Origin: Bdellovibrionales bacterium
GTDB taxonomy: Bacteria > Bdellovibrionota > Bdellovibrionia > Bdellovibrionales > UBA1609
Reading direction: 5' to 3'
NCBI GenBank assembly: GCA_965242635.1
Contig: OZ251471.1
Location: 1,426,769-1,490,768 of the forward strand
Length of the DNA stretch: 64,000 bases
A program made the translations under genes and the position numbers. Below, piece by piece: positions 4,955 through 40,677 of the stretch. Below the pieces are notes generated by a model that saw nothing but the letters and a program-made list of their open reading frames with translations, made no database searches and was not told the origin of the DNA. Position 1 is the stretch's first letter, and the number at the start of each line of letters is the position of its first letter.

Positions 4955-5281
4955 CCCTCTTTTTCAGAGTGGCTCGGAAAAAGTTTCCGAACCGCTTTTT
5001 TCCTTGTGTTTCATTGCTTTATTGCACCATAAAAAAAGGGCCTTTTTCAAAGTGGCTCGGAAAAAATTTCCGAACCGCTTTTTTCCTTGTGTTCCATTGC
5101 TTTATTGCACCATAAAAAAAGGGCCTTTTTCAAAGTGGCTCGGAAAAAATTTCCGAACCGCTTTTTTCCTTGTGTTTCATTGCTTTATTGCACCATAAAA
5201 AAAGGGCCTTTTTCAAAGTGGCTCGGAAAAAATTTCCGAACCCACATTTTGGTCCAAAAAACTAATTGATAATTTTCCTGA
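4955..5281. repeat. Right array: ~4 copies of the 83-bp hairpin unit
   Basis: GTGGCTCGGAAA starts at 4969, 5052, 5135 and 5218 (exact 83-bp period). The last unit runs into the merR 3' end. Confidence 0.95.
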
Positions 5282-7689: not shown

Positions 7690-8067
7690 ATGCAAACAAA
7701 ACTTTTGACCTTTATTTTTTTGACAGGGGCCTTGATTTTGCCCTTCGGCCTTATGGCCAGTGTGGAGGAACAGCCTCAGGTTCCCACCAGTTATCCTGCG
7801 GACTTTGATTACATGGAACCAAACGAATCAGAAATACAGCGGATGCATGAAGGAGGCAAAAGCTGTGGGCCAACAGAGCATGACGGGGAGGATTGTGGTC
7901 AGGATGCGATCCTGGCACATTCCTATCCTGTTCCTGTATATGGCAATGTATGCCGCAACGGCCTTTTTTATTGCTACACCTATGCCCCTGCTCCTGTGGG
8001 AGCCCTTTGCCACTGTCACGATTTTTTTGGCAATATATGGCTTGAGGGCACCGTTCACACATGGTAG
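7690..8067 (+). CDS. Small secreted Cys/His-rich hypothetical protein
   Basis: Signal peptide 'MQTKLLTFIFLTGALILPFGLMASVEE'. RBS-like GGAAAGGAGAAG upstream. Confidence 0.5.
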   Translation: MQTKLLTFIFLTGALILPFGLMASVEEQPQVPTSYPADFDYMEPNESEIQRMHEGGKSCGPTEHDGEDCGQDAILAHSYPVPVYGNVCRNGLFYCYTYAPAPVGALCHCHDFFGNIWLEGTVHTW

Positions 8068-8101
8068 TGGGCCAGAAGAACAAAACACAAGGAGTAAGAA
8101 A

Positions 8102-17463: not shown

Positions 17464-17644
17464 AATCGTATTTGAAAATGCAAGGTTCCAATCTGGACAG
17501 GAGGGCAAAACCTCATCAGCGACACCCTTTTCAAAAGGCAGGACCTGCCTCGCGGGTTCTGCCTGCCCCAAGCCAGTTTGGTTTAACTTATTCTAAAGAG
17601 CAATGAAACATTTTTTTATAAAATATGGCTATGAAAAATTCCCA

Positions 17645-17658
17645 CCCCCCCCCCCCCC
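17645..17658. repeat. Homopolymeric C14 tract inside the 5' coding region of the lipoprotein gene
   Basis: Counted directly: 6 C (17645-17650) + 8 C (17651-17658). Confidence 0.95.
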
Positions 17659-17700
17659 GCACCGCGTCATAAGTGGTGGGGTTGTCTGATTGTATCTCTT

Positions 17701-19032
17701 TTGACAGCTTATGCTCTCATCAGCTGTTCAGGAGAGCCGTCCCCATCCCCTGCTCCAGTGGGAAGAAAGACCACCAAGACCATCGACCAGGAAAAACAGG
17801 AGGAAAAGTGTCAGGCCAATCAGGGCAGGCTCTGCTCAGAAGACAAAGAATGCAAAAAAATATGTGATGAGCTTTTTTCCACAAACAGCCATGAAACAGC
17901 TTGTCTGAAATTGCCTGAAGAGACAGTTTCTAATTTTGAAGAACTGCTTGAGGAAATGACAGAAAAAGGCCGGGCCGTGGATATGGATCTCCACACTTTG
18001 GAGTGCTTGTTGGACATAGACGATACAGAGTTTGCCCGTGCCATCAGGAAACTTCCTCGTGAGGAGGCTGAAAAGTTTCTGATTGAAATAGCGGAGGACA
18101 AAAATCTGGCCCGGATTTTGGAGGAGGAAGACGATGAATTTAATATTTTAAAGCAGGTTTTTTCACGGGCGGGTTTGGGGAACAGGTTGCGGGATGTTTT
18201 GACGGAGGAGCTGGAGGACGACAAGAGCTTTTTTCATATTGTGGCCGATGACGAAAATAAGCCGGCATACAAGTGGGTGGAGGAGTATGTGGAGGAGATA
18301 TGTGAGGAGAGGGGGGACACCCTGCAATGCCCCGGCAAGAAAAAGCTTGGAGCTTATTGCAAGGCTTTTTTGCAACACTACAGGTCTTATCTGTCCCGTT
18401 TTTTGTCTCAGGGGGATTTGTTTGAGGAGGACTACCGGAGTAAACTCAAGTCCGGGGGCCACAAGTGGACTGTTTCGGGTTTTAAGGATTTTTGCCGGGA
18501 TGAATACAGTGTGACTTCCTCCAGCAGTGGCAGTGGCAACGGCAATGGTGGTGGCACTCTCGTCTGCACAGCCACAAGAGGTTCCACCACTTCAGCCTGC
18601 CCCTCTTCTTCCCCTCCTTCGGAGTGCAAACTGGCGGATGTAACCCTTGCGACCGTCGGTAATCGGCATATATATACTAAATCTGGTGGGTTTACCATTC
18701 TATCCGGCGTACCCGAAGCACAGGCAGGCTCTATTGACCCACCATCTATAGATAAAATTGGACAGATTTTTCGTCTCGAAACGGGGCTAAAATCAAGAAT
18801 TATGTTAAGCAGTACTGAGATTAGTGAGCTTGCCGCCTTACCCGCCCATACTTGGTATTTGTATATGGACGGAAGACGCTATGCCATGACTCCTATGACT
18901 CGTATTGCAAATCTATTAGCGACGGTTTATCGTTTTACTTTTGCGGACCGACAAAATATCGTCGCAGGACAATACAGCATTCATCTGGCTTATGAGGATT
19001 CCAGTAACCATTGCCACTGGATCCGCCCATAA
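17701..19032 (+). CDS. Lipoprotein, acidic Cys-patterned N-domain. Its true start (ATG 17631) is out of frame across the C14 tract
   Basis: The called ORF begins inside a signal peptide ('TAYALISCSG', lipobox LISC). Deleting 1 C joins it to 'MKNSHPPPPAPRHKWWGCLIVSLL'. Pattern C-x5-C-x3-C-x12-C is shared with 54482..55636. Confidence 0.7.
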   Translation: MTAYALISCSGEPSPSPAPVGRKTTKTIDQEKQEEKCQANQGRLCSEDKECKKICDELFSTNSHETACLKLPEETVSNFEELLEEMTEKGRAVDMDLHTLECLLDIDDTEFARAIRKLPREEAEKFLIEIAEDKNLARILEEEDDEFNILKQVFSRAGLGNRLRDVLTEELEDDKSFFHIVADDENKPAYKWVEEYVEEICEERGDTLQCPGKKKLGAYCKAFLQHYRSYLSRFLSQGDLFEEDYRSKLKSGGHKWTVSGFKDFCRDEYSVTSSSSGSGNGNGGGTLVCTATRGSTTSACPSSSPPSECKLADVTLATVGNRHIYTKSGGFTILSGVPEAQAGSIDPPSIDKIGQIFRLETGLKSRIMLSSTEISELAALPAHTWYLYMDGRRYAMTPMTRIANLLATVYRFTFADRQNIVAGQYSIHLAYEDSSNHCHWIRP

Positions 19033-19258
19033 ATTTTCAAGTTTTTGGCCATTCATCTTGCTTATCAGGATTCCGATGGCCACTGTCACTATATCCGCCC
19101 CTAACTCCCTTGAGCTTTTGACTTGCGAGTTATTTCTGGTCTGCCTCAGCCACTGGATCCGCCCATAAATTTTCAAGTTTTTGGCCATTCATCTTGCTTA
19201 TCAGGATTCCAATGGCCACTGTCACTACATTCGCCCCTAACTCCCTTGAGCCTTTGAC
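19013..19258. repeat. 110-bp unit x2 (136-bp period) that begins with the gene's last 18 nt and carries silent copies of its C-terminal tail
   Basis: GCCACTGGATCCGCCCATAAATTTTCAAG... at 19013 and 19149. Tail copies at 19048-19104 and 19184-19240. Confidence 0.9.
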
Positions 19259-19540
19259 AGGCCCTCAATAACAGGGCTTTGGCCGGGGCAAAGCATGAAA
19301 AAAGCTTGCTTTCCTTCAAAAAACCTGGCTAATATAAAGTGTGACTTTATATTGGCCGGCCCCATAGCTGGCTGTGTCTTATATACTGGTCCTTCTTTTT
19401 TGCCTGTTCAAAAAGGGGTGGACGCTGTGCCCTTGAGTTACATATAAACCCAACTGGCCTTAAAAAATTATCAGCAATAGTTAAAGGGCAGAACCAAAAA
19501 GCGGGAAAAATACAGATAAAATTTTCATGGGCAACAATTT

Positions 19541-22835: not shown

Positions 22836-23657
22836 TCACTTTACGGCTCTGGTGGAGATCACCTGTGGCATTATGGAGTCCAGAGGTTCTTTCTCATCCT
22901 TTCCCCAATAAGTTTCATAAAGCCCTGTTATTTTAAATCCGGCCTCTGTCTGTCCGCCTATCAGGTCTGTCAGGCTGTGGCTGAACTCAAAACCATGCTC
23001 CCCTTTTTTTATTTTGGATTTTATGTCCTGAGCACTTAAGGATTCCAGGTCAGAGTAAGGAATTTTATGGATCATTTTCATCTCCCCTTTGGTTTCGTAA
23101 AGCCTCCAGTCCAAAGAGTAACAAACCGGATTGGTGAATTCTGTTACAAAAACCCCCTTGGGTTTCAAAACCCTGAAAACCTCCCTGTAAACTTTTTTTA
23201 TATTCCGGGTCCAACAGGAAGACACCCCGTTCAGAACAAAATCAAAGCTTTCATCTTTAAAAACTTGTAGATTCTCCATTTCCCCCTTTTCAATTTTGAG
23301 CTTTTCGCCTTCCTGCTGGCAGACCTCCCGGTCTTTTTTCAACTGCTCTTCGGAAAAATCAAAGGAGGTGACCTGTGCCCCTGTGGCACATAAAAGGGGT
23401 ATTTGCTGGCCACCGGCCAAGGCCAGGCCCAACACACTCAAGCCCTTCCAGCTCTCAGGTTGCCAGGCACGGGGCATAATATCCAGCTGACCCTGTCGGG
23501 CTTTTTCCACTAACTCTTTGGACACTTTTCGGCTCCAGGGGCCTTCGGCCCTGGACCATTCGTTCCAAAACTTCCGGTTGGACTCTATATAATCGATCAT
23601 GGCCTTTTCCTGCATGTTCAGCCTGTCCTGAATAAATCCCTTTTCTTCCACCGTCAT
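22836..23657 (-). CDS. Class I SAM-dependent methyltransferase
   Basis: Motif I-like 'VLGLALAGGQQIPLLCATGAQVTSFDFSEEQL'. Motif post-I/II 'FDFVLNGVS', 'LKPKGVFV'. Confidence 0.7.
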   Translation of the reverse strand: MTVEEKGFIQDRLNMQEKAMIDYIESNRKFWNEWSRAEGPWSRKVSKELVEKARQGQLDIMPRAWQPESWKGLSVLGLALAGGQQIPLLCATGAQVTSFDFSEEQLKKDREVCQQEGEKLKIEKGEMENLQVFKDESFDFVLNGVSSCWTRNIKKVYREVFRVLKPKGVFVTEFTNPVCYSLDWRLYETKGEMKMIHKIPYSDLESLSAQDIKSKIKKGEHGFEFSHSLTDLIGGQTEAGFKITGLYETYWGKDEKEPLDSIMPQVISTRAVK

Positions 23658-23843
23658 CCCTTTTCTTCCCCTGTCATTCCCGCGAAAGCGGGAATCTGGT
23701 CGTTTCCCTTTTCATTGACCGTCATTCCTTTTCTTTCACTGTCATTCCCGCGAAAGCGGGAATCTGGTCGTTTCCCTTTTCATTGACCGTCATTCCTTTT
23801 CTTTCACTGTCATTCCCGCGAAAGCGGGAATCTGGTCATTCCC
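23658..23843. repeat. 68-bp tandem repeat x ~2.7, each unit containing one REP hairpin
   Basis: CTGTCATTCCCGCGAAAGCGGGAATCTGGTC starts at 23671, 23739 and 23807. Confidence 0.95.
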
Positions 23844-24053
23844 TTGAGAATAAATGACTATTTTAGCTTGAATTGGTTTTTTCAGGATAGACTGTTGAAT
23901 TTTGCTTTTTAGCACTGATTTGTCAAGACCAAAGTGTTGTATTACCATGCCCAAGTATGTTAGAGTGTTTACAACACTTTGAATTAAGAAGAAACCTTCA
24001 AAGGGTGTCAAAAAAAGGGGGTTTGTCAAACCCTTGTGTTCAAAGTCCGTGCC

Positions 24054-24545: not shown

Positions 24546-24688
24546 ACCTCAATCTTAACATAATCTTAACATTATAAATTTGACTTCAGCTGAGTCTTCA
24601 GCTATAAACCCTGTAGGTGACCTTGGTTTTTATTCAGGAACCAGGTTAAAAATGCCGTTTGTTAAACTGTCCAAAAAGGGGGTGTATC

Positions 24689-25306
24689 ATGTTGTCAAAA
24701 TGGTTTATATTTTCTGTTCTTTGTTTCACTTTTTCTGCCTTTGCCTTACCTGTCGCTGAAGAAGGACCAGGCATTCCCCCTATAATTATAGAGCGGGCGG
24801 AGGGACCAGGCATTCCCCCTATAATTATAGAGCGGGCGGAAGACTGGCCTGTCCATGTGGCCTATGGCGAAGGTCCTGTCAGAGAGTGTCCAGATGAAGT
24901 GGAAGGGCTTGGCAAGCGTAAAGACATTTGGCTACCTGATCCAACAATATACATATACGAAGCAGACAAAAGATGCCGTGACACTGTGGGTCCGGGCACT
25001 TTGCCTGTCCATGTGGCCGTGGGCACAGGAGTTGTTATTGAGCAGGCCGGTGAAGAAGAAGGTCCGGGCATCCCCCCTATGATCATTAAAACAGCAGAAG
25101 GATTTTATTTCGTGTGTCCTGAAGGGGGCGAGGAAAGTGTTTGTATTAACTCCTTATTGAGTGCGGTGGGGGATAATGAAAAAGGCCCCACTGTCCTGAT
25201 TAACCAAGAGGGTGTGCCATTGGTGGATTGGGACTGGGCTGTCCATTATATGCCAGTTGTTCCAAAAACAGGGGTTGAACGGGCAGACATGCTGGCAGGA
25301 TTGTGA
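24689..25306 (+). CDS. Secreted repeat protein
   Basis: GGGGG RBS. Signal 'MLSKWFIFSVLCFTFSAFALPVA'. Repeats 'EGPGIPPIIIERAE' x2 plus a third degenerate copy. Confidence 0.55.
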   Translation: MLSKWFIFSVLCFTFSAFALPVAEEGPGIPPIIIERAEGPGIPPIIIERAEDWPVHVAYGEGPVRECPDEVEGLGKRKDIWLPDPTIYIYEADKRCRDTVGPGTLPVHVAVGTGVVIEQAGEEEGPGIPPMIIKTAEGFYFVCPEGGEESVCINSLLSAVGDNEKGPTVLINQEGVPLVDWDWAVHYMPVVPKTGVERADMLAGL

Positions 25307-38870: not shown

Positions 38871-40487
38871 ATGTCTTCACTGATCAGCAAAAAGCCACAA
38901 AAAGCAGAGAAGTCCGCTCTGCTGATGTCCACCGGCACCTTCATATCCCGTGTTCTGGGGCTTTTCAGGGACATGGCGATAGGGGCTTTTTTTTCCCGAA
39001 CAGAGACAGACGCCTTCTTTGTGGCTTTTCGAATCCCCAATTTTTTTCGCCGTTTTATAGGGGAAGGGGCCCTTTCCATAAGTTTTATCCCTGTTTTTGT
39101 CCAGTGCCTTGCCCCCTCTTCAGAAGGGGCTGTTTCTGAACAGGATCCCACACAAAGGGCGAAAAACCTGATGAACAGTGTCTACACCCTTTTACTGCTT
39201 CTGGTGGCGAGCCTGACTGTGGGGGGCATTTTGTGCATGGATCCTCTGTTTCACTGGCTGTTTGCCGACACCCCTTTTGCTCAGGTGGAGCAAAAAATGC
39301 AGATGACGATTCTCATGGCCCGTTTGTTGTTTGTGTATTTGTTTTTGGTGACTTTATACGCGTATTTTATGGGTATCGCGAATGCCCTGGGGAGCTTTTT
39401 TATCCCTGCTTTGGCCCCCGCTTTTCTCAATATTTTTATCATTGTGTTTGCTTTTTTGCCAAAGGACACAGTGCCCTTTCCTCCTTTGCTTTTGTGTTAT
39501 GGCGTGCTGGCGGGCGGTTTTTTTCAGGTGGTTTTGACCGCTTTTTTGCTTTATCGGTTGGGTTTTTTACCCCTGCCTGTTCTTTCTTTTTCCCATAAAG
39601 ATCTTGGGCTTATGCTCAGTCGTTTTGGCCCTGGGCTTTTGGGGGTGGGGGGCTTTGCCATTATTGGCCTTATGAACCTTTATTTTGCCGGCTGGCTGGA
39701 GGAGGGGGCACACACTTATATTTATTATGGGGATCGCCTGCTGGAGCTTCCCCGCTCTCTTATAGCCATCAGCATGGGGACGGCTCTTTTGCCTCAGCTC
39801 TCATGGTTTTCTGCCAGAGGCCAAAGGGCGGAAATGCTGAAAACCGCCTCTCAACAAAGGGAACTGCTTTTGTTTTTGGTTTTGCCCTGTGCGGTGGCTT
39901 TTTATTTTATGGGCACACCCATTATAGAGGTTTTGTTTCAAAGGGGGCGGTTTGATGCTGTTACAGCGGAGAACACCGCTTTGGTTTTAAAAATCTATTC
40001 TGTTTTACTCATCAGCTCCTCTCTTTCGCGGGTATTGGCCACTTGTTTTTACGCGGTCAAAAACACCTGGTATCCAGCCCTTTGTTCTGCCCTTTATATG
40101 TTGTTTCATGCTTTGCTGGTGGGTTATATGACAAAGGCTTTGGCTTTGCCGGGGTTGGTGGGGGCGACCGTTATATCCAATGTGTTTTTTATGTGTTTGC
40201 TAATGGGGGCTTATCCTTTTTTTGTGGGCCGGTTTTATGTGGCCAGTACTCTCAAACAGCTGGTTTGTTTTTTGCCGGGGCTTTTGATTTTGGCTTTTTA
40301 CTTGAGTTTTGCCTTTGATTTTTCCAAAGCTCTGTTTCAAACATGGGCCGGTGATCTTTTGGCGGGGGTTTTGGCTTTGATTTTTGTGGTTTTGTCTTCG
40401 TGTGTGCTTTATTTTTTGGTAGGGGCTTTCTTTCGTCTCTCTTCCGTCAAACAGTGCTTAAATCTCATCAGAAAAAAAAGAGGCTGA
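38871..40487 (+). CDS. murJ: Lipid II flippase MurJ (MviN)
   Basis: 'STGTFISRVLGLFRDMAIGAFFSRTETDAFFVAFRIPNFFRRFIGEGALS', plus 12 or more TM segments. Confidence 0.9.
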   Translation: MSSLISKKPQKAEKSALLMSTGTFISRVLGLFRDMAIGAFFSRTETDAFFVAFRIPNFFRRFIGEGALSISFIPVFVQCLAPSSEGAVSEQDPTQRAKNLMNSVYTLLLLLVASLTVGGILCMDPLFHWLFADTPFAQVEQKMQMTILMARLLFVYLFLVTLYAYFMGIANALGSFFIPALAPAFLNIFIIVFAFLPKDTVPFPPLLLCYGVLAGGFFQVVLTAFLLYRLGFLPLPVLSFSHKDLGLMLSRFGPGLLGVGGFAIIGLMNLYFAGWLEEGAHTYIYYGDRLLELPRSLIAISMGTALLPQLSWFSARGQRAEMLKTASQQRELLLFLVLPCAVAFYFMGTPIIEVLFQRGRFDAVTAENTALVLKIYSVLLISSSLSRVLATCFYAVKNTWYPALCSALYMLFHALLVGYMTKALALPGLVGATVISNVFFMCLLMGAYPFFVGRFYVASTLKQLVCFLPGLLILAFYLSFAFDFSKALFQTWAGDLLAGVLALIFVVLSSCVLYFLVGAFFRLSSVKQCLNLIRKKRG

Positions 40488-40650
40488 CCGCCGTGTCGGC
40501 GGGGACAAAAGGTAAACTCTGTCTTTCCAAAGACACTCTGATGAAATAAAATCACCAAAAAAAAGAGGCTGACCGCCGTGTCGGCGGGGACAAAAGGTAA
40601 ACTCTGTCTTTCCAAAGACACTCTGATGAAACAAAATCACCAAAAAAAAA
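40472..40650. repeat. 85-bp tandem repeat x2 plus a partial third copy
   Basis: AAAAAAAAGAGGCTGACC starts at 40472, 40557 and 40642. The first copy contains the murJ stop. Confidence 0.9.
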
Positions 40651-40677
40651 GAGGCTGACCTTTTTGGATCAGCCTCT
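40642..40677 (-). terminator. Rho-independent terminator of the porin gene
   Basis: AGAGGCTGA-N10-TCAGCCTCT, followed on the minus strand by T9. Confidence 0.6.

What the first reader, a model, noticed from the sequence alone, without database searches (positions are those of the whole stretch)
18967..19258. Triplicated C-terminal 'tail + stop' module behind the same lipoprotein gene
The gene ends S-IHLAYEDSSNHCHWIRP-stop (stop at 19030-19032). A 110-bp unit follows twice (19013-19122 and 19149-19258, 136-bp period). Each unit starts with the gene's own last 18 nt (CACTGGATCCGCCCATAA = HWIRP-stop). After a 15-nt linker, each unit carries a variant tail: A-IHLAYQDSDGHCHYIRP-stop (19048-19104) and A-IHLAYQDSNGHCHYIRP-stop (19184-19240). 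Tail 1 is in the same frame as the gene, 5 codons after its stop. The differences between the expressed and silent tails are codon-level substitutions that preserve the IHLAY..HCH.IRP skeleton. This looks like a stock of alternative C-termini for recombinational tail switching or stop read-through, or a fossil of serial 3' duplications. I do not recognise this arrangement from described systems.
Basis: seen in the sequence. Interest (0 to 1): 0.6.

Follow-up and report, generated by a model that had tools for sequence, protein, structure and literature searches.

The report
Leftover duplicated gene tails after recombination
Three copies of the last 18 codons plus stop codon really do sit at the end of this lipoprotein gene, but they look like untranslated leftovers of duplication and of recombination between gene copies in a fast-evolving surface-protein family, not a dedicated tail-switching device.

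Summary
It is local, not a dispersed repeat, and far beyond chance.

The gene belongs to a small, unannotated, multi-copy lipoprotein family from ~2 Mb Bdellovibrionales MAGs. The family has a conserved helical N-domain, a Ser-rich linker and interchangeable C-terminal domains (CTDs). The tail (IHLAY..C.[YW]I..) is the family's conserved C-terminal end.

Key new fact: paralog B, read from a near-identical copy in another assembly (L005), has the mirror arrangement. It has an expressed Y-type tail, the same 17-nt linker, then a silent W-type tail. The window gene has an expressed W-type tail and two silent Y-type tails. Five informative sites group the tails by type across loci; none groups them by position.

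Synonymous divergence between the paralogs is 4-fold higher in the CTD than in the N-domain (p = 2e-4). Tails and CTDs have therefore been exchanged by recombination, and displaced tails were left downstream. This is a miniature of the "C-terminal displacement" known from rhs and polymorphic-toxin loci. The newest step is a 110-nt re-duplication with 26 nt of unrelated filler.

Read-through is not supported: only 1 of 3 silent tails is in frame. No recombinase lies within about 15 kb. A housekeeping gene (murJ) in the same window also has a duplicated 3' end. Programmed switching remains possible but is unshown.

The parts
17625..17700 (+). True 5' end of the gene: ATG at 17625 and a 14-C homopolymer at 17645-17658. 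The signal peptide is out of frame with the body in this assembly.
   Evidence: The L005 homologue has 16 C and an intact MAMKKSHPPPPPAPRHKWWGCLIVSLLATCAFISC signal peptide and lipobox.
17701..19032 (+). Lipoprotein-family gene A, given as the mechanical ORF. Helical N-domain and Ser-rich linker run to about 18650; the beta-rich CTD covers about 18651-19029.
   Evidence: No Pfam match. Secondary structure comes from a low-confidence AF2 model.
18978..19032 (+). Tail 0, expressed, W-type: IHLAYEDSSNHCHWIRP plus TAA.
19033..19049 (+). Linker L, copy 1 (ATTTTCAAGTTTTTGGC). It is the ancestral first 17 nt of the 3' flank.
   Evidence: It is conserved at paralog B (TGTTCAAGTTTTTGGC) and resembles the native 3' flank in L007.
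19050..19104 (+). Tail 1, silent, Y-type (IHLAYQDSDGHCHYIRP plus TAA), in frame 0 with the gene.
19105..19122 (+). Segment d: 18 nt after tail 1 (CTCCCTTGAGCTTTTGAC). It marks the end of the first 110-nt copy.
19123..19148 (+). 26-nt filler between the two 110-nt copies. It is not tail-like, and no template was found.
19149..19168 (+). Truncated W-type tail end (GCCACTGGATCCGCCCATAA), identical to 19013-19032.
19169..19185 (+). Linker L, copy 2, identical to copy 1.
19186..19240 (+). Tail 2, silent, Y-type (IHLAYQDSNGHCHYIRP plus TAA), in the +1 frame relative to the gene.
19241..19258 (+). Segment d': 18 nt after tail 2. It marks the end of the second 110-nt copy; locus-specific flank follows.

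Best explanation
The extra tails are untranslated by-products of duplication and recombination at the 3' end of a modular, multi-copy lipoprotein gene.

The family combines a conserved N-domain with interchangeable CTDs. Its last 18 codons are the best-conserved piece of the CTD.

Proposed history:
1. An older event produced tail-linker-tail. The unit is the last 18 codons, the stop codon and the first 17 nt of 3' flank, 72 nt in all. This structure is shared with paralog B.
2. Recombination between copies (paralogs and/or alleles) then moved CTDs and tails about. The conserved N-domain served as the upstream homology and the conserved tail as the downstream crossover zone. Out-of-register or one-sided (illegitimate) exchanges put a new CTD and tail in front and pushed the former tail downstream. 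This is C-terminal displacement in miniature.
3. The most recent step in this genome re-duplicated 110 nt, from inside tail 0 to 18 nt past tail 1, with 26 nt of filler.

Shown: the anatomy; the mirror arrangement at the paralog; the grouping of tails by type across loci; the mosaic synonymous divergence; the absence of dispersed copies.

Inferred: the order of events; the role of the tail as crossover zone; that the silent tails are not translated.

The array keeps a latent capacity. An ordinary RecA-type deletion between tail 0 and tail 1 or 2 would give an intact gene with a Y-type end. Nothing indicates this is a selected, high-frequency switch.
For: - Paralog B (P0002, 86% identical, same 1,998,056-bp genome) was read from its near-identical copy P0019 in L005. 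It ends in a Y-type tail, then the linker TGTTCAAGTTTTTGGC, then a silent W-type tail. This mirrors the window's W-L-Y order.
- The tail difference matrix gives W-type {A0, B1} 5 differences and Y-type {B0, A1, A2} 3-5 differences, against 8-13 between types. Five informative sites support the cross-locus grouping and none supports grouping by position.
- Collinear A/B homology runs from about 30 nt upstream of the ATG to the stop of the second tail, then ends.
- Identity is about 98% over the N-domain but about 70% over the CTD. dS is 0.084 against 0.32 (Fisher p = 2e-4), and CTD dN/dS is about 1.
- Family members with a related CTD in other genomes have a single tail.
- The family is rearrangement-prone. 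L011 holds an internally deleted copy. Truncated copies exist (P0007, P0008, P0014). The CTD is also fused to a different N-domain (P0061, P0064, P0067). W-type and Y-type ends both occur in distant members.
- The genome makes 3'-end tandem duplications generally: an 85-nt unit repeated 2.2 times includes murJ's last 16 nt.
- No recombinase, integrase or transposase lies within about 15 kb.
- The 26-nt spacer is not a decayed tail, which fits an illegitimate junction.
- The displacement model is established for rhs and T6SS loci (PMC2935791; PMC5361080).
Against: - Only two loci from two assemblies carry the arrangement, so the order of events cannot be resolved. No donor sequence for the 26-nt filler or for the incoming CTD was found.
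- The silent Y-type tail 1 differs from the expressed Y-type tail of B by 4 synonymous changes, 1 conservative replacement and one extra Thr codon in B0. Long-silent DNA should not look like this: Poisson p about 0.003 under a crude half-neutral model. Either displacement was recent, or the tails are kept 'coding-like' by conversion or selection. The second option would favour a cassette function.
- All three differences between tails 1 and 2 are states shared with other tails, which hints at ongoing conversion.
- The source genome's own B locus could not be read.
Confidence: 0.6

Rival explanations
1. Programmed tail switching. The silent tails are donor cassettes. RecA-mediated gene conversion or deletion between direct repeats swaps the C-terminal hairpin (W or Y, S/D/N, E or Q) at appreciable frequency. 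Together with the 5' poly-C tract, this would make the gene a contingency locus.
For: - Both paralogs keep an intact, stop-terminated silent tail of the other type.
- Substitutions among Y-type tails are biased towards synonymous changes, 4 against 2.
- Differences between tails 1 and 2 are a patchwork of states seen in other tails.
- The 5' coding region carries homopolymer or tetranucleotide tracts, typical of phase-variable surface genes.
- CTD dN/dS is about 1.
Against: - The repertoire is tiny: two silent tails, one amino acid apart.
- No variant of A or B with an alternative tail sits in the 90% clusters. The cluster of P0001 has 1 member. The two members of the cluster of P0002 share the same tail.
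- Related family members in other genomes have no silent tails.
- No recombinase is nearby.
- murJ shows the same kind of 3' duplication, so no special function is needed.
- An intact 18-codon frame is expected by chance at 80-96% identity.
Confidence: 0.12
2. Pure local slippage or tandem duplication with no exchange between copies. The 72-nt and 136-nt repeats arose in place by replication slippage and simply decayed.
For: - The window is rich in intergenic tandem arrays: 83 nt x3.4, 68 nt x3.1, 85 nt x2.2 and 39 nt x2.
- TRF sees a 72-nt periodicity of 3.8 copies.
- The linker resembles the native 3' flank of a distant family member.
Against: - It does not explain why W- and Y-type tails group across loci in opposite positional order.
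- It does not explain the 4-fold dS contrast along the gene.
- The array has 1.8 rather than 2 or more copies of the 136-nt unit, with 26 nt of unrelated filler, so it is not a clean tandem duplication.
Confidence: 0.2
3. Translational recoding. This would be stop read-through or frameshifting into the next tail, or a coupled small ORF (in B the stop overlaps an ATG, TAATG, giving MFKFLALHLAYQDSSGHCHWIRP).
For: - Tail 1 is in frame 5 codons after the TAA.
- In both loci the linker reads xFKFLA in the frame of the following tail.
- B has a TAATG stop-start overlap.
Against: - Frames are inconsistent: 0, +1 and -1 for the three silent tails.
- There is no ATG in A (only ATT or TTG) and no Shine-Dalgarno sequence in the linker.
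- No slippery sequence was looked for; the only homopolymer near the stop is the T5 in the linker, downstream of it (read).
- The product would carry the terminal beta-hairpin twice.
Confidence: 0.03
4. Non-coding functional element or dispersed repeat. This would be a terminator, a small RNA, a protein-binding site or a REP-like element that merely resembles the gene end.
For: - The junction of linker and silent tail can fold into a roughly 14-bp hairpin.
- The whole 3' region folds better than shuffles, z = -3.7.
Against: - There are no further copies in 64 kb or in 11 related loci.
- Rfam gives no hit.
- No terminator-like site lies in the array.
- The z-score is dominated by the separate 16-bp hairpin at 19327-19357.
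- The hairpin is weaker at paralog B.
Confidence: 0.03
5. Assembly artefact of a long-read MAG.
For: The assembly shows a probable homopolymer problem at the poly-C tract.
Against: - The tail-linker-tail structure recurs in an independent assembly from another sample (L005).
- The 110-nt copies differ at 4 positions, which is not what a collapsed or expanded read artefact looks like.
Confidence: 0.02

Closest known systems
C-terminal displacement at rhs loci (Jackson et al. 2009, PMC2935791), and the orphan CdiA-CT, Rhs-CT and MafB-CT modules
   Same: The genes have a constant 5' part and a variable 3' part. The 5' and 3' parts have decoupled evolutionary histories. Former 3' ends are left as promoterless fragments directly downstream of the expressed gene. 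Each fragment begins with a short stretch homologous to the expressed gene, which could support recombination.
   Different: Here the displaced pieces are only 18 codons, or 20 nt for the truncated one. They encode no toxin domain, and no immunity genes follow. The family has no Rhs/YD, VENN or similar demarcation motif. Two paralogous loci carry mirror-image pairs.
Sequential displacement of T6SS effector modules by homology-facilitated illegitimate recombination in Vibrio cholerae (PMC5361080)
   Same: The proposed mechanism is the same: an upstream homologous anchor, an illegitimate downstream junction, and the old 3' end shifted downstream. The truncated W end and the 26-nt filler look like such a junction.
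   Different: That case involves whole effector-immunity modules and natural competence. Competence and HFIR are unknown for these Bdellovibrionales.
Silent-cassette antigenic variation (Neisseria pilE/pilS, Mycoplasma synoviae vlhA, Borrelia vlsE)
   Same: One expressed gene is accompanied by 5'-truncated silent copies of its variable 3' part. The copies are bounded by conserved sequence.
   Different: Those systems hold many diverse cassettes and switch within clonal populations. Here there are two nearly identical mini-cassettes and no population evidence.
Ordinary intergenic tandem duplications (slipped-strand or unequal crossing-over)
   Same: The repeats are head-to-tail, 72-136 nt long, 80-96% identical, and sit at a gene end. 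The same window has an analogous array at the murJ stop codon.
   Different: Slippage alone does not give the cross-locus tail types or the filler-interrupted 1.8-copy structure.

Membership tests
Rhs / CDI / Maf polymorphic toxin loci with orphan C-terminal tips | Conserved N-terminal or core region and variable C-terminal region with decoupled histories | tested here: met
   The N-domain is about 98% identical between paralogs and the CTD about 70%. dS is 0.084 against 0.32, p = 2e-4. Different CTD types occur on the same N-domain, and the same CTD occurs on another N-domain.
Rhs / CDI / Maf polymorphic toxin loci with orphan C-terminal tips | Family signature domains or demarcation motifs (YD repeats or PxxxxDPxGL, VENN, DUF1020) | tested here: not met
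   The gene, its CTD, P0060 and P0061 have no Pfam domain.
Rhs / CDI / Maf polymorphic toxin loci with orphan C-terminal tips | Toxin C-terminus followed by a cognate immunity gene; orphan tips paired with immunity genes | tested here: not met
   Only 72-136-nt non-coding units follow the gene. The next gene is a convergent SpoIIE-type phosphatase.
Rhs / CDI / Maf polymorphic toxin loci with orphan C-terminal tips | Displaced 3' fragments directly downstream that start with homology to the expressed gene | tested here: met
   Tails 1 and 2 and the truncated W end. The mirror arrangement occurs at paralog B.
Silent-cassette antigenic variation (pilE/pilS type) | Multiple diverse silent cassettes that serve one expression site | tested here: not met
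   There are two silent tails, differing by 3 nt or 1 amino acid. No others occur in 64 kb or in related loci.
Silent-cassette antigenic variation (pilE/pilS type) | Recombinant expression-site variants within a population or between close strains | not testable with these tools
   No reads are available. The source genome is not retrievable beyond the window. No close strain of locus A was found: the best neighbouring-gene homologue is 67% identical. The clusters of P0001 and P0002 hold no tail variants.
Shufflon / invertase-driven C-terminal switching (R64 pilV-Rci type) | Inverted recombination sites and an adjacent site-specific recombinase | tested here: not met
   The repeats are direct, not inverted. 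No recombinase domain occurs in ORFs within about 15 kb.
Programmed translational recoding (read-through or frameshift extension) | The extension lies in a defined frame relative to the stop and is conserved between homologous loci | tested here: not met
   The frames of the three silent tails are 0, +1 and -1.
Dispersed intergenic repeat (REP/MITE-like) | Many copies at unrelated loci | tested here: not met
   Copies occur only at the two paralogous gene ends. Two metagenome scans gave no hits.
Phase-variable contingency gene (simple-sequence repeat in the 5' coding region) | A long homopolymer or short repeat within the ORF whose length sets the reading frame and varies between isolates | tested here: inconclusive
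   The tract is 14 C (out of frame) in the window and 16 C (in frame) in L005. L011 has a tetranucleotide repeat read here as (CTGC)n (LPAC repeat) at the same place. A long-read homopolymer error cannot be excluded.

The most novel reading that the evidence does not exclude
The two paralogs and their reciprocal silent tails form a minimal cassette system. Frequent gene conversion or deletion between direct tail repeats swaps the terminal beta-hairpin (W or Y, and neighbouring residues) of a surface lipoprotein. This would work together with on/off switching at a 14-16-C tract. It would be a contingency locus in uncultivated Bdellovibrionales in which only the last 18 residues are the variable cassette.
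Probability: 0.1. Interest if true: 0.6.

Novelty: new variant of a known kind. Interest (0 to 1): 0.3.

Why it matters
The finding gives a compact, readable record of how a modular surface-lipoprotein family swaps C-terminal domains in an uncultivated bacterial order. The conserved last 18 codons appear to act as the downstream crossover zone, and each imperfect exchange leaves a dated scar. This extends the 'C-terminal displacement' picture beyond toxin systems and down to a much smaller scale.

Practically, it warns annotators that in-frame 'alternative tails' behind a stop codon need not mean recoding. It also flags this lipoprotein family as a candidate contingency family worth checking in read-level data, because it has 5' simple-sequence tracts, often sits next to restriction-modification (RM) systems and has many truncated copies.

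If the tails were shown to switch within populations, it would be the smallest cassette system described.

Tried and rejected
1. Retrieving the source genome beyond the window failed. Exact look-ups of P0001, P0002 and P0020 found nothing. The one genome-contig scan returned only two distant relatives.

2. No close strains of locus A were found through the neighbouring SpoIIE-like gene. The best homologue is 67% identical and sits in a different context.

3. Two JGI metagenome scans found nothing. One used the CTD profile and one used the linker-tail junction as a DNA pattern.

4. The dispersed-repeat idea was rejected.

5. The RNA-element or terminator idea was rejected. Rfam gave no hit and no terminator lies in the array. 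The hairpin at the linker-tail junction is not conserved convincingly at paralog B.

6. The idea that 19123-19148 is a decayed tail, which would give a regular four-unit 72-nt array, was rejected by alignment against shuffles.

7. No template for the 26-nt filler was found.

8. The structure model of the full protein has low confidence (pLDDT 54.7). It was used only for secondary structure: the tail forms two terminal beta-strands. No fold search was attempted.

9. An H-C-H metal site was not pursued. The histidines are not conserved across the family (..SCTY....NCKY....SCMY..), whereas the Cys is.

10. The polymorphic-toxin idea (SitA-like lipoprotein toxins) was considered. There are no toxin or immunity signatures and some CTDs are of LRR type.

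11. phmmer hits of the CTD to long repeat proteins (P0062, P0065) rest on a short WYLDADGDNYA-like stretch and were not used.
Full report
OBSERVATION

The ORF 17701..19032 (+) ends ..GQYS-IHLAYEDSSNHCHWIRP-TAA. Repeat finding gives three 55-nt copies of the tail plus stop at 18978-19032, 19050-19104 and 19186-19240. The downstream two are 80% identical to the expressed one. It also gives two 110-nt copies at 19013-19122 and 19149-19258, 96% identical and spaced 136 nt (TRF rows).

Each 110-nt copy begins with the last 20 nt of the expressed tail and the 17-nt linker ATTTTCAAGTTTTTGGC. That string occurs exactly twice in the 64-kb window, and the tail's 5' half exactly three times. Dinucleotide shuffles gave zero matches for either. 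Tail 1 is in frame with the gene, five codons after the stop, and tail 2 is in the +1 frame.

Two refinements apply. First, the 26 nt between the 110-nt copies (19123-19148) is not a decayed tail (alignment against shuffles), so the second W-type piece is a truncated 20-nt end. Second, the gene's true start is an ATG at 17625, followed by a 14-C homopolymer at 17645-17658. This tract puts the signal peptide out of frame with the body in this assembly.

WHAT THE GENE IS

The gene has no Pfam match. A search of 5.8 billion proteins found only 18 relatives, all from chromosomes or contigs of about 2-Mb genomes. Two loci from the genome collection are titled 'MAG: Bdellovibrionales bacterium'.

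The family shares an N-domain of about 270 residues rich in conserved Cys and acidic motifs, a Ser/Gly-rich linker, and then different C-terminal domains. These include a beta-rich CTD ending in the tail, LRR-type CTDs and others. A low-confidence AF2 model (pLDDT 54.7) predicts an all-helical N-domain and a beta CTD in which the tail forms the last two strands. I use this for secondary structure only.

The tail is the family's conserved C-terminus. Examples are IHLAYQPSGGSCTYITQP, VALAYQDGSGHCHYILPPSS, ISIAYQDSSNHCNYILPPAS and IFLAYEDNGNCKYILPPSTN. The Cys is conserved and the histidines are not, so an H-C-H metal site is unlikely to be the point.

An exhaustive phmmer search with the CTD found a few more members. 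One has a W-type end (P0060, VHLAYEDSSGNCHWIRP). Several carry the same CTD on an unrelated lipoprotein N-domain (P0061, P0064, P0067). The CTD is thus a shuffled module.

THE KEY COMPARISON

The same genome encodes a paralog, P0002. It is 86% identical, lies elsewhere on the 1,998,056-bp chromosome, and ends in SVHLAYQDSDGHCHYIRPT, a Y-type tail. I could not retrieve that genome. P0019 is the other member of the 90% cluster of P0002, and the two read identically over their shared length by eye. Its locus was retrievable from another sample (L005, ERZ26050812).

In L005 the gene's Y-type tail and stop are followed by TGTTCAAGTTTTTGGC, the same linker, and then by a silent tail LHLAYQDSSGHCHWIRP-TAA, which is W-type. 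Locus A (window) therefore reads W-L-Y(-w-L-Y) and locus B reads Y-L-W.

The pairwise matrix over 54 nt gives the following:
- A0 against B1: 5 differences.
- B0, A1 and A2 against each other: 3-5 differences.
- Between types: 8-13 differences.

Five informative sites (26, 36, 41, 42, 51) support the cross-locus W and Y grouping, and none supports grouping by position.

Collinear homology between the loci starts about 30 nt upstream of the ATG and ends right after the stop of the second tail. Identity is about 98% through the N-domain and linker, and about 70% in the CTD. By Nei-Gojobori counts, dS is 0.084 (dN/dS 0.13) in the N-domain and linker, against dS 0.32 (dN/dS 0.96) in the CTD. The difference in synonymous changes has Fisher p = 2e-4.

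The two paralogs are thus mosaics with different histories along their length, and the tails have been exchanged between positions or loci.

SCOPE

A six-frame motif scan of the window and all fetched loci found extra tails only at these two loci. Family members with a related CTD in other genomes (L003, L004, L007, L008, L009) have a single tail. The 110-nt unit, the linker and the filler have no other copies in about 180 kb of accessible sequence. Two scans of JGI metagenome contigs, one by CTD profile and one by the linker-tail junction, found nothing. It is therefore not a dispersed repeat, but the comparative sample is thin.

CONTEXT

The neighbours are housekeeping genes. They include murC upstream and, downstream, a convergent SpoIIE-type phosphatase, a polyprenyl synthase, a methyltransferase and ligA. 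No recombinase, integrase or transposase domain occurs within about 15 kb. In the nearest genome with the same phosphatase block (67% identity) no family gene sits there, so locus A is a lineage-specific insertion or duplication at a synteny break.

Rfam finds only a tRNA in the window, and no terminator-like site lies within the array. The linker plus a silent tail can form a hairpin, but it is weaker at locus B. The fold z-score of the region is dominated by a separate 16-bp hairpin at 19327-19357.

The window holds several other near-perfect intergenic tandem arrays. One of them is an 85-nt unit repeated 2.2 times that starts 16 nt before the stop of murJ and repeats the left arm of its terminator. 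Duplication of a 'tail plus stop' is therefore not special to this gene.

INTERPRETATION

The most economical account has three steps.

(i) An older 72-nt duplication of the gene end produced tail-linker-tail. The unit was the last 18 codons, the stop and the first 17 nt of flank. The linker resembles the native 3' flank of a distant member, L007. This structure is shared by both paralogs.

(ii) Recombination between family copies moved CTDs and tails. The near-identical N-domain served as upstream homology and the conserved tail as the downstream crossover zone. Out-of-register or one-sided exchanges left the previous tail behind the new one. This accounts for the mirror-image W/Y order and the mosaic dS.

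(iii) A recent event (4 differences in 110 nt) re-duplicated the segment from inside tail 0 to 18 nt past tail 1, with 26 nt of unrelated filler. That is the signature of an illegitimate junction, not of clean unequal crossing-over.

This is the process described as C-terminal displacement at rhs loci (PMC2935791). For T6SS effector modules it is described as homology-facilitated illegitimate recombination with the old 3' end shifted downstream (PMC5361080). Here it appears in miniature, in a non-toxin lipoprotein family. Steps (i)-(iii) are inferences from two loci, and the order of events is not resolved.

WHAT SPEAKS FOR MORE THAN SCARS

The silent Y-type tail 1 differs from B's expressed Y-type tail by four synonymous changes, one conservative replacement and one extra Thr codon in B0. 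Under a crude model in which half of that divergence was neutral, about 8 replacements would be expected (Poisson p about 0.003).

The three differences between tails 1 and 2 are all states seen in other tails. Either the displacement was recent relative to the divergence, or the tails are refreshed by conversion.

The family also carries simple-sequence tracts at the 5' end of the ORF. There are 14 C here against 16 C in L005, and a tetranucleotide (LPAC-coding) repeat in L011. Many copies are truncated or internally deleted. Members often sit beside restriction-modification genes. These are traits of contingency loci.

A plain deletion between tail 0 and tail 1 or 2 would yield an intact gene with a Y-type end. 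I give a programmed-switch reading about 10-12%.

Against it:
- The repertoire is two silent tails that differ by one residue.
- No tail variants exist in the protein clusters.
- Relatives lack silent tails.
- murJ provides a functionless parallel.

RECODING

Read-through or frameshifting is not supported. The three silent tails lie in frames 0, +1 and -1. The linker has no Shine-Dalgarno sequence. The TAATG stop-start overlap seen at B is absent at A.

VERDICT

It is best read as recombination and duplication scars, that is, C-terminal displacement in miniature, at a modular and probably phase-variable lipoprotein family of uncultivated Bdellovibrionales. It is a new variant of a known kind, of modest interest (0.3). 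The decisive data are read-level heterogeneity and the rest of the source genome.

Noticed in passing
window 17625-17700 (poly-C 17645-17658); L005 about 8001-8100; L011 127-260: The 5' coding region of the family carries simple-sequence tracts. The window has 14 C, which puts the signal peptide out of frame. L005 has 16 C and is in frame. L011 has about 9 units of a tetranucleotide (LPAC-coding) repeat at the same place. This is either phase variation of a surface lipoprotein family or a long-read homopolymer error.
   Followed up: partly
window 40472-40660: An 85-nt tandem repeat (2.2 copies, 98% identical) starts 16 nt before the murJ stop codon (ORF 38871-40487). It repeats the left arm of the terminator hairpin. 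This is a second 'tail plus stop' duplication in the same window, at a housekeeping gene.
   Followed up: partly
window 4959-5242, 23637-23845, 24764-24840: Further near-perfect tandem arrays: 83 nt x3.4, 68 nt x3.1 and 39 nt x2. The first two lie between mechanically listed ORFs; the third falls inside listed ORF 24659-25306 (no Pfam match). The density of such arrays in 64 kb looks unusually high (my impression; not compared with other genomes).
   Followed up: no
L004 61-6410 and L010 2394-5951 (same chromosome, ERZ25070167 ctg394301): Two family paralogs (P0008, truncated, and P0003) flank a BsobI-type restriction-modification pair in inverted orientation. Other members also sit next to RM or defence genes (L003, L009, L011).
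   Followed up: no
L011 127-916: An internally deleted family copy. The N-domain is fused out of frame to the last 76 codons of a P0004-like CTD, including its tail.
   Followed up: partly
L005 9482-9503 and 9830-9851: The 22 nt just after the silent tail at paralog B (CCATAACCCATAAATTGGACAC) matches a stretch inside the downstream gene at 21 of 22 positions. It may be templated filler from a template-switch event.
   Followed up: no
window 19327-19357: A 14-16-bp near-perfect hairpin lies between the convergent lipoprotein and SpoIIE-like genes. It is followed by a T-run only on the minus strand, so it is probably the terminator of the phosphatase gene.
   Followed up: no
proteins P0061, P0064, P0067 (no loci fetched): The same tail-bearing CTD is fused to a different lipoprotein N-domain (..FFADLERDLADIA..CYWEKGHDHIEF..). 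This shows domain shuffling beyond the family studied here.
   Followed up: no
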